Shown: in pieces, positions 18,001 to 24,000 of the stretch
Layout: every line of letters starts with the position of its first letter
Position numbering within the stretch: position 1 is the stretch's first letter
Assembly: GCA_963666985.2 (NCBI GenBank)
Contig: CAXXIA010000001.1
Coordinates: 1,088,001 to 1,152,000 of the forward strand
Direction: 5' to 3'
Origin: Spirochaetia bacterium
Lineage (GTDB): Bacteria > Spirochaetota > Spirochaetia > DSM-2461
Length of the DNA: 64,000 nt
Made by a program: the position numbers

Positions 18001-21000
18001 CGCCATGGCCGTGGCCATGTCTTTCAGACTCATTATGAGCTTAACGTCGTTCGTCGTGGTTCGTGCTCCGAAACTGACACTCAGCTCGGAACCCGTTTGG
18101 CCGGCCGCACCCGCGGGATTTACGAACAGAGAACCGAACCCTCCGAAATCTCCCACAAAGGGATCCGTGGCTTTCTTCTCATCCTCAAAGAAAGTACCGC
18201 CGAAGAGTATCGCGGAGAGAGTCGTAAACAATATTGAAATAATTATGATTTTCTTAGTCACGATTGTACCTCCCGACCGGATAAAACCGATCAACAGCGC
18301 CGTCTAAGCGGCAAAAAAAGCTCAACATTTCATGTCAATGGTACTTTTCGTAATAAGACTTCTTAAATAATCCAAAATATGGTTATTTAAATGTAACACG
18401 TACCACGGATCAGTTCAAAGCTTTTTTTACGTTCAAGGGTCTATTATACCGCTCAATTTTCTTATTCATCGGCGCTTAGTTCAATAATAACGATGATTTA
18501 TTCGATCGAGTCATGGGAAATGTCTATGGTGTTTATCAGTTATTGTTTTTATGAAGATCTTATGAAGATGCTTTTTAGGTGAAAAATCATGCCTTCGGGC
18601 TTAAAAACTCCGCCTGCGAAAATAATCCGGACTGGAATCAACGGGTACTCGAAGACTATGGTTGAAGCATGATACATATCCCTTTGGACATAGCACCGGA
18701 GGTAGCCGACGCCAGAAGCGAGCATAGGCCGGTCCTCGCTCTCGAATCAACCATCATTTCACATGGAATGCCGTATCCGGAGAACGTGGAAACAGCTTAC
18801 CGGGTTGAAGAAATAGCGCGTCAGGAGGGAGCCGTTCCCGCCACCATCGCGATTTTGGACGGACGCTTGAAAGCCGGCTTAACACCGGAAGAAATCGACA
18901 GACTGGGGCAAGTCGGACCGAAAATCGCAAAAGCAAGCCGACGCGACATACCCATTCTTGTGGCTTCCAACGAAAACGGCGCCACAACCGTTGCCGCGAC
19001 CATGATTATCGCGGCCCTGGCCGGCATTCACGTTTTTGCGACCGGCGGCCTCGGCGGTGTTCATCGAAACGCATCCGAAACATTTGATATTTCCGCGGAC
19101 TTGGAAGAGCTCAGCCGAACGGAAGTGGCCGTTATTTGTTCCGGTGTAAAATCAATTCTGGATATCGGACTGACGTGTGAATACTTGGAAACAAACGGGG
19201 TGCCCATTCTCGGATATAAAACTTCATCCCTTCCGGCTTTCTACAATAGAGACAGCGGATTTCCCGTAGATCGGCAGATCGATGAAGTCGCGGAAGTAGC
19301 GCGAATCATGATGGCCCAATGGACATTGGGCCTGGGCGGGGGCTTAATCGTCGCAAACCCTATTCCGGAAGAAATGTCCATGGAAAAAACGGTTATCGAT
19401 ACCGCAATAGAAGAAGCCCTCTCAGAGGCGGAAAAAAAAGGCGTTACGGGTAAAGAAGTCACTCCGTTTCTGCTGTCGAAGGTTGCGGAAATAACGAAAG
19501 GAGACAGTCTGAAGGCCAATATAGCCCTTGTCCATAACAATGTGCGCTTAGGAGCCCGAATCGCGGTTTCCTATTCGGAGATATCAGCGAACAATTCCCG
19601 GGCATAAACCTTGCCGCATAAAAAAGGGCTCCCTCATCATTCATGAGGCAGCCCCTTTTCAAAGATTCGATTTCTTTTACGCTACGCGATTGGCGATATC
19701 CACCATCATGTAGTTCAGGAAATCACCGGCAAGATCGTCGGATTTGTTCTTTTCCGTACGAAGAATCGTGTTGAGACCGTAAATAATTGCGGAAGCGACC
19801 GGTACGGCGATTTCAGGCCGTCGGCCGTTCTTTACCAGGACATCTTTAATCGTTTTCTTCAAGATGTTGTGAATGTCGTCGGCGACTTTCTGGTAACGAG
19901 TACCGGTACTCCCTCCGAACAGGGTCAGCCATTCGGACTTATGGTCTCTCTGAAGTTCATTAAACTTTTCCAGCAAGTAAGAAAGCTGCGCTTCGGGGTC
20001 TTTCGGAAGATTGGCTTTGAGCGATTTGATCTCATCAAACAATCCGCCGATTATGGCACCGTAAAGATCTTCTTTGTTCTTGTAATACCTATAGAGATTC
20101 CCAACAGTCATGTTGGCGCTTGACGCAATGGACCTCATCGAGGCTTTCTCGAACCCGCATTTCTTGAACTCACGACGGGCAGACTTAATAATCCTCTGCC
20201 GGACTTCTTCTTTTAAGACTTGCATATCTTTTACCCCCATCTAATTCACTATTTTATATATTTAAACTTAGCATTAGAAAAGAACAATCGTCTAATGGAA
20301 ATGACCAATATTTTTAAAGAAACATCTGTTATCTATATAATCTTCACAAAAAATACACATTCGGCTTCCCCTCCAAAAGCCTTTACGCCGTTTGTTATTC
20401 CCAGCAGCCAACAAACGGCTTTTACTTATTCTTGCCGAAATATGAATGCAAGTTAAGTATTGTTAAATCTAAGTAAGTTTATATTTATATGATCTTTTGA
20501 TCAATAAAAAAACCCTTAATCATATGAAAAGAAAAACTTTTTGTTGTTTTCTTTCAGATCTTCGGATTCCTCCCTAAGAAGAAGAATGAACGCTTTCCAA
20601 CATTCCACGGGGTGGCCGTGCGTTCGGAGGATTTGTATAATTCAACGGCGGTATTTCAAAGCATGACGACTGTATTGGTTTTCGGAACGTTCGACGTTAT
20701 TCATTCCGGACATAAATGGTTTCTCAAAAAAGCCTCCCGTTTGGGAGACCGGCTTATCGCCGTCGTTTCACGGGACGATTTTGTTAAAGAATGGAAAGGC
20801 CGCAGTCCTCTGATGGATGAACGCTCACGAATAAAGGCCCTTCAATCTTCCGGATTGGTGGATGATGCGATACTTTCCGATCGGGAAATCCGGACATACG
20901 GCGTTCTCGAAGAAATCAAGCCTGATATCATCTGCCTTGGTCATGATCAGAAATCCCTTATGGAAGACCTTTTTTCCAAACTGGAAAACGGAGAGATCGA

Positions 21001-24000
21001 CTGCGCCCCTCCGAAAATAGAGATTCTCCCGCCCTGGCGGCGCCGTCTGTACAGTTCAACGCGGCTGAACCAGCCCCTTGGAGGCGCCGATCGGAAGGCG
21101 AAAGGAGAATGGGGTCTTATAATCCTGGCCGTTCTTGCCATGACGGCCTTCGGCTTCAGCTGGGTTTCCGGAAAGCGTATCAGCGCACTTACGACACCCC
21201 CGCTCCTCACGTTTTTAAGATTTCTTCTCACCTCAGTCTGTTTCCTACCGTTCTTTTTCTTCAGGAAATCACCCTGTCCGACCGGGAAATCGCTTCTTTT
21301 CGGCATGGCGTGGACCTTCGCGGCATCAATAGCAATAACATCTTACAATCTCCTTTTTTTTCTCGGACTCGGATCGGGGCTTGCGGGAAAAGGCGGTTTG
21401 ATTGTTACAACGCTGAACCCGCTCTTTACGTTCACCATAGCTTCAATCGTATCAAAATCCCGTCCGGGACTATTTTCAATCGCCGCTCTGGTACTCGGGA
21501 TTGCAGGAGGATTTCTCCTTCTGGAACCGTGGGCTTTTACCGTATCCGAGTTCGCCGATTCCTCGAACTTGCTATTCCTCGCGGCGGCGCTCTGCTGGTC
21601 GCTGCTGACTCTAACGGGAAGAAAAGCTCAGTCGTATATGGGATTCGGGCTTTTTAACGCGGGATTATATATTTTTTCTTCTCTGCTGATTCTTCCGTTC
21701 GCCCTCAAAGACATCAGCATGACGCTGATCAGGTCCTTCGACTCTTCGTTCTGGTTTGATTTAGGCTTTATCGCCATAATCGTCGGAGCTTTCGGTACGG
21801 GTGTATATTTCATCGCATCAACTCGCCTCGGAGCCGCGAAAGGAAGCGCGTTCACATATCTTGTACCCGTTTCGGCCCTGATATTCACGGCCGTTCTTCT
21901 GGACGAACGGCCGAAACCGTTTATGCTTCTCGGAGGTCTTCTCGCAATTTCAGCCGTAACGCTCATGAACAAATCGGAAGATAAGCGCCGATAATAAAAC
22001 CGGTAAAATCCCCGAGCTTTAAACGGATTTTCAAACTTTTCGTTCCGCCCGGTGCAGCGTTCTTAAGGCTTTATCCTTTTTCGTTCCTTTTATAACCGAC
22101 GATTCTGTTGAACAAGGCCGGTTTCTTTCGAACCGGTTTAACGGGGTTTCCCATGAGCCTTGCCAGAATGGAGAGTTCTTTGGAACGTTCCAAAAGAAGT
22201 CTTATGGTTACCATGAGCGGTACGGAGAGCAGCATTCCGGGGATTCCCCAGATATACCCCCAGAAAAGAAGTCCGAAAATCACGGTGACCGTATTCAAGC
22301 GCAGCCTGCTTCCCATAACCATCGGATCGATGATGCTCCCGATAAGAAACTGTGATACTCCCAACAAAATTCCCAAGGCAATAATAAGTCCGACTTTGTC
22401 GAACTGAATAACCGCCATGAACAGCGGCAGAACGACGGCGACGAGTGAACCGATGGAAGGAATATAATTCAGCAGAAAGGCCATGAAGCCCCAGAACAAC
22501 GCAAACCGAAGCCCGAAGAACATACAGAGAAGTCCCGTGATGATTCCGGTGACCAAACTGATGATTGTTTTGATGCTCATATACGCCGAAATACTCTCCT
22601 GCGTTATATCCCATATCTCGCGGGTGCTTTCGCCGGATGATTCCTCATTATTCCCCGTTACATAATCCACATAGGCACGGTATCGTGTCGCGCCGGAAAG
22701 AAGAATGAGGTAATACAGGAGAAAAAGTACGGAGGAAGATCCGAAACTTCCCAAAGCTCCGAGAAGATTCCCGATAAGAGCCCCAATTCCGGCCGGAGAG
22801 AGAACCTTGTTGAGTTCTTCGTGAACGTATTCCACGTTGAGGCCGGGGATTGTGTTCCCCACCCACAAAATCGCCGCATTCAATTTTTTTACAAATTGCC
22901 GCGCAAGAAAATCTTTCTGCTGAATAAGCTGTTCGACGGTTCCGCTGATCATCCAGAAAACACCCCAGAGGATGGCCAGCGAAAAAACGGCCACCAACAG
23001 TGTAATGATGAATTTCGGGATTTTCCCTTTATTCAGAAAATTGACCATGGGAAGATTCAGAATCGTCAGAAGACCCGCCAGCGTTAAAGGAAGAAGGAGT
23101 CCCGATAATTCTTTCAGGACAGCGAAAATAACGATGATAAGGAGAATAAGAAGAATATTTCTGATTCCTTTTGTATGATCGGTCATATCAACTCCCGAAT
23201 ACGGATCTTTTCCTACAGGATGCAGAACTGAAAAGCCCGGTTTCATCCGGGCCTTTTTAAGTAAAAAATATTATATCGGGAAAATCGGGCAAATTAAATT
23301 GCCGTTCGCTGAGAATCAGCCGAAACGTCCGTGAATGTAATCGGCGGTTTGCTTCATCTTGGGATCGTTAAAGATCTGATGCGTCTCACCGAACTCAATC
23401 AGCTCTCCGAGAAGAAAGAATGCGGTTTTGTCGCTGACTCGGGCCGCCTGGTGCATGGCATGTGTAACGATGACAATCGTGTAATCCTTCTTCAATTCTT
23501 CCATGAGTTCTTCGATTTTCTGCGTTGCAATGGGATCCAAGGCACTGGTTGGTTCGTCCATAAGGATGACTTCAGGCTCCATCGCGATGGCCCGCGCGAT
23601 GCAGAGACGCTGCTGCTGACCGCCGGATAACCCCAAAGCCGTCTTCTTCAATCGATCCTTCACTTCATCCCAGAGGGCGGCTTTGATAAGGGAACTCTCA
23701 ACGATTTCGTGAAGCTTCGCCTTATCGTGCAGTCCCTGCATCTTAGGACCGTAGGCCACATTGTCGAAAATGCTCATCGGGAAGGGATTGGGTTTCTGAA
23801 AAACCATCCCGACCCGCGTTCTGAGCTCGGTAACGTCCATGTCGCCCATGATGTCGTCGCCGTCTATGGAGATTTCACCCTCCCATCGGCAAATATCGAT
23901 AAGATCGTTCATCCTGTTCAGATTCCGGAGAAACGTCGACTTCCCGCAGCCCGAAGGTCCGATACAGGCGACGACTTCACCCGTATTGACTGTCATATTA

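What a model noticed while it worked through the whole genome (the two positions that open the first line are those of the whole stretch)
20663..21994. RibF lost order-wide and replaced by an archaeal RibL-type FAD synthase fused to an EamA transporter
The genome and its whole order lack RibF, the near-universal bacterial riboflavin kinase/FAD synthetase. g00988 joins an archaeal RibL-type FMN adenylyltransferase domain (aa 1-139) to a two-repeat EamA transporter in one chain. It is the candidate FAD synthase of the order; as no riboflavin kinase of either known type is found, the fused transporter may deliver FMN, or an unknown kinase exists.
Evidence so far: RibF: 0 of 38 order genomes but 286 of 301 phylum genomes; the truB-rpsO slot is an empty 260 bp. 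Flavokinase PF01687: only marginal repeat hits in 2 of 38; CTP-dependent kinase: 1 true hit in 38. g00988 matches 31 of 38 order genomes, full-length fusions in 13 and adjacent two-gene pairs in 5. Among 300 other phylum genomes the domain is found only in G147, which also lacks ribF. All five Swiss-Prot hits are archaeal RibL (36-44%, call 147); best PDB hit 3glv, E 3e-19, HxGH and PDIIxLGxDQ kept. 51 database proteins carry both domains. Searches 151, 152 found no bacterial RibL or this fusion; PMC11423594 (passages) covers only archaea and Entamoeba.
(Added by a program. Inside this text positions count along the whole contig: contig position 1,088,001 is position 1 of the stretch shown here. 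"Call 12" and the like, gene names such as g00115 and contig names such as C1 are that model's own, and its searches are not shown. The text may have been shortened before it was handed on; [...] marks where a part breaks off. The agent that wrote the report below was given it as the finding of a first reader that could run no searches.)

Follow-up and report, generated by a model that had tools for sequence, protein, structure and literature searches.

The report
Archaeal-type FAD synthase replaces spirochete RibF
A group of spirochete bacteria has swapped its usual FAD-making enzyme for an archaeal-type one, here joined to a membrane transporter, and the check shows that most of their relatives have no recognisable enzyme for the step before it (riboflavin to FMN), which points to an enzyme still to be found.

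Summary
In detail: one 443-aa ORF joins a RibL-type nucleotidyltransferase to a two-repeat EamA transporter, and RibF is missing in 38 of 38 order genomes. The FAD synthase assignment is now stronger. The domain groups with archaeal RibL from rib operons, not with GCT or RfaE. Relatives are fused to a riboflavin kinase, to TruB and to the FAD exporter EetB. Four of five RibL-bearing genomes outside the order also lack RibF. Two readings change. (1) The domain is not order-specific: 25 of 363 other class genomes have it, and the EamA fusion recurs in another family. (2) The kinase gap is class-wide and older than ribF loss: 37 of 45 class genomes keep RibF's adenylyltransferase half, only 6 a kinase domain. 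So RibL replaced an already monofunctional enzyme. FMN import by the fused EamA cannot be the general answer: 21 of 38 order genomes make riboflavin, this genome has a riboflavin importer under an FMN riboswitch, and 7 RibL genomes lack the EamA. An unrecognised riboflavin kinase is likelier; I did not find it. No assay exists. Some complete genomes have neither RibF nor RibL.

The parts
20663..21994 (+). Fusion gene, 443 aa: RibL-type FMN adenylyltransferase + EamA transporter (an in-frame GTG at 20612 would add 17 aa; relatives start at the ATG)
20663..21079 (+). RibL-type nucleotidyltransferase domain, aa 1-139 (predicted FMN + ATP -> FAD + PPi)
   Evidence: Pfam PF01467; model pLDDT 88.5 with best PDB fold match 3glv; profile scores and tree
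20702..20713 (+). HxGH nucleotide-binding motif, aa 14-17
   Evidence: invariant H14, G16, H17 in a 70-sequence alignment
20921..20950 (+). PDIIxLGxDQ motif, aa 87-96, shared with archaeal RibL; the GCT rows have GxDW and the RfaE rows KGxDY here
21107..21970 (+). Two-repeat EamA/DMT transporter, about aa 149-436; substrate and direction not established
   Evidence: PF00892 E 1.9e-29; alignment A2; no flavin genes beside stand-alone relatives
19677..20240 (-). Divergent TetR-family regulator, a conserved neighbour in genera g1, g3 and g4; no link to flavins shown
22071..23246 (-). AI-2E family transporter, frequent downstream neighbour; probably not part of the system

Best explanation
The N-terminal domain is a monofunctional RibL-type FMN adenylyltransferase and is the cell's FAD synthase (inferred from family, context and distribution; not assayed). 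It entered Spirochaetia from the Patescibacteria/Woesearchaeota branch of the RibL family, or shares an origin with it. It displaced a ribF that had already lost its kinase half in this class, so a one-step enzyme was a full replacement. Riboflavin comes from synthesis (21 of 38 order genomes) or the RfuABCD importer (this genome). It is phosphorylated by a kinase or phosphotransferase of no known type, shared with other Spirochaetia (inferred from absence). The EamA is an accessory neighbour that became fused in some lineages. It tethers the enzyme to the membrane and may move a flavin, but it is not the obligatory FMN source.
For: Family: all 26 order and G147 domains score higher on a profile of 11 archaeal RibL from rib or ribK context than on GCT (4 sequences) or RfaE (27) profiles; for this protein 101.9 vs 68.1 vs 61.2 bits. 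The tree separates the RibL group (SH-aLRT 98) from GCT (99) and RfaE. Archaeal relatives sit between ribB and lumazine-synthase-family genes, or beside the CTP-dependent kinase. Fusions in the same clade: riboflavin kinase (P0186), TruB three times (the usual ribF neighbour), an FAD-binding oxidase, EetB. G147's only EetB-family gene is fused to the domain; EetB binds and exports FAD in Listeria (PMC9973259, passages). Complementarity: RibF 0 of 38 in the order, absent in G147, absent in 4 of 5 further RibL genomes picked before testing. Kinase gap: 6 of 45 same-class genomes have PF01687, 37 of 45 have FAD_syn. G139's RibF has no PTAN motif or kinase match, matching the type II FADS listed for T. 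pallidum (PMC2972280, passages). G000 has an FMN riboswitch before rfuABCD; T. pallidum RfuA is argued on structural grounds to exclude FMN (PMC3573665, passages).
Against: No assay of any member of this sub-clade was found. Genus g6 (4 genomes, two 96-98% complete), G196 and six Borrelia-like genomes have neither RibF nor the domain, so FAD can be had another way and this enzyme may not be the only source. G660 and a Thermodesulfovibrio genome have both RibF and the domain. The clade fuses to many unrelated partners (15 partner types among 33 long forms), which weakens any single fusion. Trees are quick searches on about 142 columns without bootstrap. I found no kinase candidate with the predicted distribution. 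The decayed C-terminal half of spirochete RibF might still be an active kinase in the genomes that keep it.
Confidence: 0.68

Rival explanations
1. One reading: the EamA imports FMN and hands it to the fused synthase, making a kinase unnecessary. A weaker form is FMN salvage in riboflavin auxotrophs.
For: 12 of 13 full fusions are in genomes without riboflavin synthase, while all 9 adjacent or unlinked cases have it. G029 is the only g1 genome with riboflavin synthase and the only fusion whose EamA has decayed. RibN imports riboflavin and FMN (PMC4418817, passages); that RibN and ImpX have the EamA fold is recalled, not from a call. Earlier unchecked AI notes report DMT genes in CPR RibL-kinase operons.
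Against: The correlation follows genus lines, so it is not independent. G026, G033 and G003 lack both riboflavin synthase and the EamA (two are under 90% complete). G015 keeps both. Prototrophs need a kinase regardless. G139 and G210 lack a kinase and any EamA of this profile. 78 stand-alone relatives show no rib gene hits, and 20 loci scanned show no riboswitch. No riboswitch lies at the fusion locus.
Confidence: 0.17
2. The fused transporter exports the FAD just made, supplying periplasmic ApbE/Ftp flavinylation.
For: The independent fusion in G147 is to the FAD exporter family EetB, followed by an ECF-T-like gene. A Woesearchaeota relative is fused to a LysE-type translocator. The nearest NCBIfam models are exporters, far below cut-off. 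G000 encodes ApbE.
Against: 35 of 38 order genomes keep a separate EetB-family gene, next to apbE in G021, so export is already covered. The EamA is lost in 7 of 31 RibL genomes.
Confidence: 0.13
3. The fusion is a read-through of two unrelated neighbours. The FAD synthase is real, but the EamA moves something else.
For: RibL-like domains of this clade fuse to Ham1, Nudix, DEDD nuclease, AsnC, AlkD, VanX, TilS and methyltransferases. The EamA is unlinked in genus g5, lost in 7 genomes and decayed in G029. Its stand-alone relatives lie beside unrelated genes.
Against: The pairing is kept as a fusion or adjacent pair in 20 of 31 order genomes and recurs in family f87, where the EamA belongs to the same broad group (99 bits vs at most 58 for other G000 EamAs).
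Confidence: 0.45
4. The domain is not an FMN adenylyltransferase but another HxGH nucleotidyltransferase (GCT- or RfaE-like), and FAD is made by an unknown enzyme shared with g6 and the Borrelia-like genomes.
For: NCBIfam ranks RfaE and GCT models first, all far below cut-off. Genomes lacking both RibF and RibL show that another route exists.
Against: No RibL model appeared in that library's output, and an archaeal RibL-type protein ranks the same way (L205). Tree, motifs, profile scores, the kinase and EetB fusions, and complementarity with ribF all point to RibL. No cell-wall sugar genes were recognised next to it.
Confidence: 0.12

Closest known systems
Archaeal FAD synthase RibL (M. jannaschii MJ1179, WP_010870692 as cited in PMC11423594) and Entamoeba EhFADS
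   Same: About 140-aa HxGH nucleotidyltransferase, PDIIxLGxDQ motif, same side of the tree against GCT and RfaE, monofunctional.
   Different: Bacterial host; belongs to a sub-branch with Patescibacteria and Woesearchaeota proteins (SH-aLRT 95-97); fused to a transporter; not in a rib operon; no kinase partner of either known type in 37 of 38 order genomes.
Bacterial RibF, type I and type II FADS (PMC2972280)
   Same: Same predicted reaction (FMN adenylylation); the type II form in relatives also lacks the kinase motif.
   Different: A different subfamily (PF06574 score 15.4 vs cut-off 27); the gene is not in the truB-rpsO slot, which is empty.
EetB-FmnA ECF FAD exporter of Listeria (PMC9973259)
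   Same: In G147 the same domain is fused to an EetB-family subunit with an ECF-T-like gene behind it.
   Different: In the window the partner is EamA, an unrelated fold, and G000 has a separate EetB.
RibN / ImpX riboflavin importers (PMC4418817)
   Same: Single-gene flavin importers; EamA fold recalled, not tested here.
   Different: No FMN riboswitch at this locus, no RibN or ImpX model hit, no flavin context for stand-alone relatives.

Membership tests
RibL FAD synthase | Cytidylyltransferase-like fold with HxGH motif | tested here: met
   PF01467 E 5e-13; H14-x-G16-H17 invariant; model matches 3glv, TM 0.70/0.82
RibL FAD synthase | Groups with archaeal RibL rather than GCT or RfaE | tested here: met
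   26 of 26 domains score best on the RibL profile; tree split SH-aLRT 98. The characterised MJ1179 and EhFADS sequences were not in the tree.
RibL FAD synthase | Two conserved C-terminal cysteines (air sensitivity) | tested here: inconclusive
   No cysteine pair is conserved in the C-terminal part of the alignment, but the reference sequence was not in hand; active EhFADS also lacks them (PMC11423594, passages)
RibL FAD synthase | FMN + ATP -> FAD activity | not testable with these tools
   needs an assay
RibL FAD synthase | Co-occurs with a separate riboflavin kinase or rib genes | tested here: not met
   No kinase in 37 of 38 order genomes and no rib genes beside it; met by relatives of the same clade (P0186; archaeal loci)
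RibF bifunctional FADS | FAD_syn domain plus flavokinase domain with PTAN | tested here: not met
Glycerol-3-phosphate cytidylyltransferase (TagD/TarD) | TIGR01518 cut-off and GxDW motif | tested here: not met
   42.2 vs 165.4 bits; GHDQ, separate clade
RfaE/HldC heptose-1-phosphate adenylyltransferase | TIGR02199 cut-off and KGxDY motif | tested here: not met
   58.2 vs 181.5 bits; separate clade
EamA/DMT superfamily | Two EamA repeats | tested here: met
RibN/ImpX flavin importers | FMN riboswitch or rib-gene context | tested here: not met
RibN/ImpX flavin importers | Orthology to the characterised proteins | not tested
   reference sequences were not in hand

The most novel reading that the evidence does not exclude
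Most of class Spirochaetia, including Treponema pallidum-like and Borrelia-like genomes, make FMN with a third, undescribed type of riboflavin kinase or phosphotransferase. Genus g6 and the Borrelia-like genomes also use an undescribed FAD synthase. The RibL-EamA and RibL-EetB fusions are independent inventions that couple FAD synthesis to flavin transport at the membrane.
Probability: 0.4. Interest if true: 0.85.

Novelty: new variant of a known kind. Interest (0 to 1): 0.62.

Why it matters
RibF is treated as near-universal in bacteria. Here whole families run without it, and the papers I read describe RibL only from archaea and Entamoeba. The larger point is the gap this exposes. A 2013 paper assumes TP0888 makes both FMN and FAD, and a 2026 Borrelia paper has no occurrence of 'kinase', 'synthetase' or 'synthase' in its main text, although both organisms depend on flavins made from imported riboflavin. 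Free-living members of this order make riboflavin, sense FMN and lack every known kinase, so they are a convenient place to clone the missing enzyme by complementation.

Tried and rejected
Single-sequence fold of the full protein: pLDDT 44, not used. Kinase hunt 1: 184 proteins shared by G000 and G210 but weak or absent in G139; 158 were scanned with Pfam. The last 100 kb of G139 was not examined, so some entries are false. The design also assumed G139 had a kinase, which overturned. DUF1893/TM1506 looked promising (6 of 6 Borrelia-like, 4 of 4 g6, 8 of 286 ribF-positive genomes), but it is in only 19 of 38 order genomes, 0 of 13 other g1, not in G139, G147 or G196, and is often fused to an ABC ATPase: rejected as the class-wide kinase. 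Deoxynucleoside kinase: 1 of 5 tested, rejected. Kinase hunt 2: 440 proteins shared by G000, G210 and G139, 285 after length and membrane filters; 60 hand-picked proteins (nearly all from these) were scanned; no convincing candidate. A RibF profile from phylum loci finds only the HxGH stretch of this gene in G000 and nothing in G210. The first 1.5 kb around riboflavin synthase in 21 genomes holds only ribD, ribE and ribBA; the far ends of those operons were not read. Promoter and terminator scan: chance level. Paper searches listed no paper on a bacterial or spirochete RibL or this fusion; the library lacks most subscription journals, and no supplements were read.
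Full report
Observation. The window holds one open frame at 20663-21994 (+), 443 aa, with a cytidylyltransferase-like domain at aa 6-134 and two EamA repeats. Database names of close relatives place the genome among the Spirochaetaceae. 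RibF's FAD_syn domain is over cut-off in 0 of 38 order genomes and 286 of 301 phylum genomes. The truB-rpsO gap is 260 bp with no ORF. The flavokinase family gives only marginal hits, and the CTP-dependent kinase one true hit, in G016. The domain is in 31 of 38 order genomes: 13 full fusions, one fusion with a decayed EamA (G029), one contig-truncated fusion (G001), 5 adjacent pairs, 4 unlinked and 7 without the EamA.

Identity of the domain. Its best named relatives are archaeal, Woesearchaeota and Patescibacteria proteins. Of the neighbours I scanned (60 of 143), those of Thermoplasmata relatives are DHBP synthase upstream and a lumazine-synthase-family gene downstream; one Bathyarchaeia relative lies beside the CTP-dependent kinase. 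These are RibL by context. All 26 order and G147 domains score higher on a profile of 11 such proteins than on GCT or RfaE profiles (this protein 101.9, 68.1, 61.2 bits). A quick tree separates the RibL group (SH-aLRT 98) from GCT (99) and RfaE (94), and puts the order plus G147 (99) inside a branch with Woesearchaeota and Staskawiczbacteria (95) (similar). The trees have about 142 columns and no bootstrap, and the characterised M. jannaschii and Entamoeba enzymes are not in them. The alignment-based model (pLDDT 88.5) matches 3glv best, then GCT and HldC, so fold alone does not decide. EhFADS is the precedent for a RibL relative that proved to be an FAD synthase (PMC11423594, passages).

Fusion evidence. 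Among the 150 best hits of a profile search I scanned 33 long forms. One joins the domain to a riboflavin kinase with a PTIN motif (P0186), three to TruB, one to an FAD-binding oxidase and one to PF07456. The last is G147's protein: its only PF07456 gene is fused to the domain and followed by an ECF-T-like gene. PF07456 is EetB, which binds and exports FAD in Listeria (PMC9973259, passages). Together these support a flavin role. The same scan shows 15 partner types, most unrelated to flavins (Ham1, Nudix, DEDD nuclease, AsnC, AlkD, VanX, TilS), so this clade fuses easily and the EamA fusion alone proves little.

Distribution. The phylum sample under-represents the class. In a class sample the domain is in 25 of 363 genomes outside the order, in 11 families, and two family-f87 genomes that I read carry the EamA fusion. 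I picked five of these genomes and then tested RibF: four lack it; G660 (6% contamination) has a form without a kinase match. Two Staskawiczbacteria and two Woesearchaeota genomes with the domain lack RibF; a Thermodesulfovibrio genome has both. Against the simple picture, genus g6 (4 genomes), G196 and six small Borrelia-like genomes have neither enzyme. The labels Borrelia-like (G210) and T. pallidum-like (G139) are my inference from size and gene content.

The kinase gap. Of the 45 same-class genomes in the phylum sample, 37 have FAD_syn but only 6 have a flavokinase domain; family f16 shows 17 of 17 against 1 of 17. G139's RibF is 275 aa with no PTAN motif and no kinase match. Type II FADS without PTAN is in print for T. 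pallidum (PMC2972280, passages), and the Listeria type II enzyme is described as lacking the kinase domain (PMC9299109, passages). So the kinase was probably lost or changed before ribF was, and a monofunctional RibL is a complete substitute. Flavins still have to be phosphorylated. 21 of 38 order genomes encode riboflavin synthase. G000 has no rib genes but has an FMN riboswitch before an RfuABCD operon, with RfuA 41% identical to G139's. T. pallidum RfuA is argued to exclude FMN, and TP0888 is assumed bifunctional (PMC3573665, passages). A 2026 Borrelia paper states that FMN and FAD derive from salvaged riboflavin, and its main text has no 'kinase', 'synthetase' or 'synthase' (PMC13432742, passages). 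My two comparative hunts did not find the enzyme.

The transporter. It is a generic EamA. Of 80 metagenomic loci around relatives, the only flavin-probe hits were two more fusions, and 20 loci scanned had no Rfam match; the fusion loci have none either. For import: 12 of 13 full fusions are in riboflavin auxotrophs, and the one g1 prototroph has a decayed EamA, but this follows genus lines and has exceptions. For export: the EetB fusion and ApbE in G000, but 35 of 38 order genomes have a separate EetB. I put a flavin role of either kind at about 0.3-0.4 and a chance fusion at about 0.45.

Novelty. Searches listed no paper on a bacterial or spirochete RibL or this fusion. A 2015 Parcubacteria paper reports no ribKL or ribF (PMC4508563, passages). 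Databases already name some bacterial members FAD synthase, and earlier unchecked notes of this scan describe CPR RibL operons. PMC4418817 and PMC3239186 were also read as passages only. No supplements were read, and the library lacks most subscription journals.

Verdict. Real, and probably a RibL-type FAD synthase displacing a monofunctional RibF in several Spirochaetia families: a new variant of a known enzyme. The fusion is of uncertain meaning. The most valuable result is the class-wide missing riboflavin kinase, which is directly testable. Interest 0.62.

Noticed in passing
G021-G024 (genus g6), G196, G210 and five more genomes of family f5: Neither RibF nor a RibL-like gene nor a flavokinase; g6 makes riboflavin. 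How they make FAD is unexplained.
   Followed up: partly
G000 C2:1508467-1508880; L362-L392: DUF1893/TM1506 is in 6 of 6 Borrelia-like and 4 of 4 g6 genomes but only 8 of 286 ribF-positive ones. TM1506 has an ADP-ribose-like ligand (PMC3239186). A weak lead for an alternative FAD route; it is often fused to an ABC ATPase.
   Followed up: partly
G000 C1:589518-590504; L303:2607-3557; L330:12082-12885: Orphan P-loop protein with an Asp23-like tail, shared by G000, G210 and G139 and common in Bacillota; an unassigned kinase-like protein with no evidence for flavins.
   Followed up: partly
P0186: RibL-type domain fused to a bacterial riboflavin kinase: a RibF-like architecture built from a different adenylyltransferase.
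   Followed up: partly
L134:4359-5402: Woesearchaeota LysE-type translocator fused to a RibL-like domain, a third transporter fusion.
   Followed up: no
L062:928-1953 (G147): RibL-like domain fused to EetB with an ECF-T-like gene downstream; the protein cluster has 10 members.
   Followed up: partly
L398:1396-1803 (G016): A lone archaeal-type CTP-dependent riboflavin kinase in 1 of 38 order genomes, probably a recent transfer.
   Followed up: no
G000 C1:1165720-1172541: A run of mevalonate-pathway genes whose G210 matches are HMG-CoA synthase, reductase, decarboxylase and GHMP kinase.
   Followed up: no
L303:5831-6367: Archaeal-type (d)CMP kinase directly after yicC in G210, with matches in G000 and G139; this is the usual guanylate kinase position (recalled).
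   Followed up: no
G035, ten places: The marginal flavokinase hits come from a repeated element, not a kinase gene.
   Followed up: no
window 7244-12160 (-): 1638-aa ORF that by eye resembles SpvB/Rhs-type repeat proteins (recalled, not tested); it ends abruptly and may continue in another frame.
   Followed up: no
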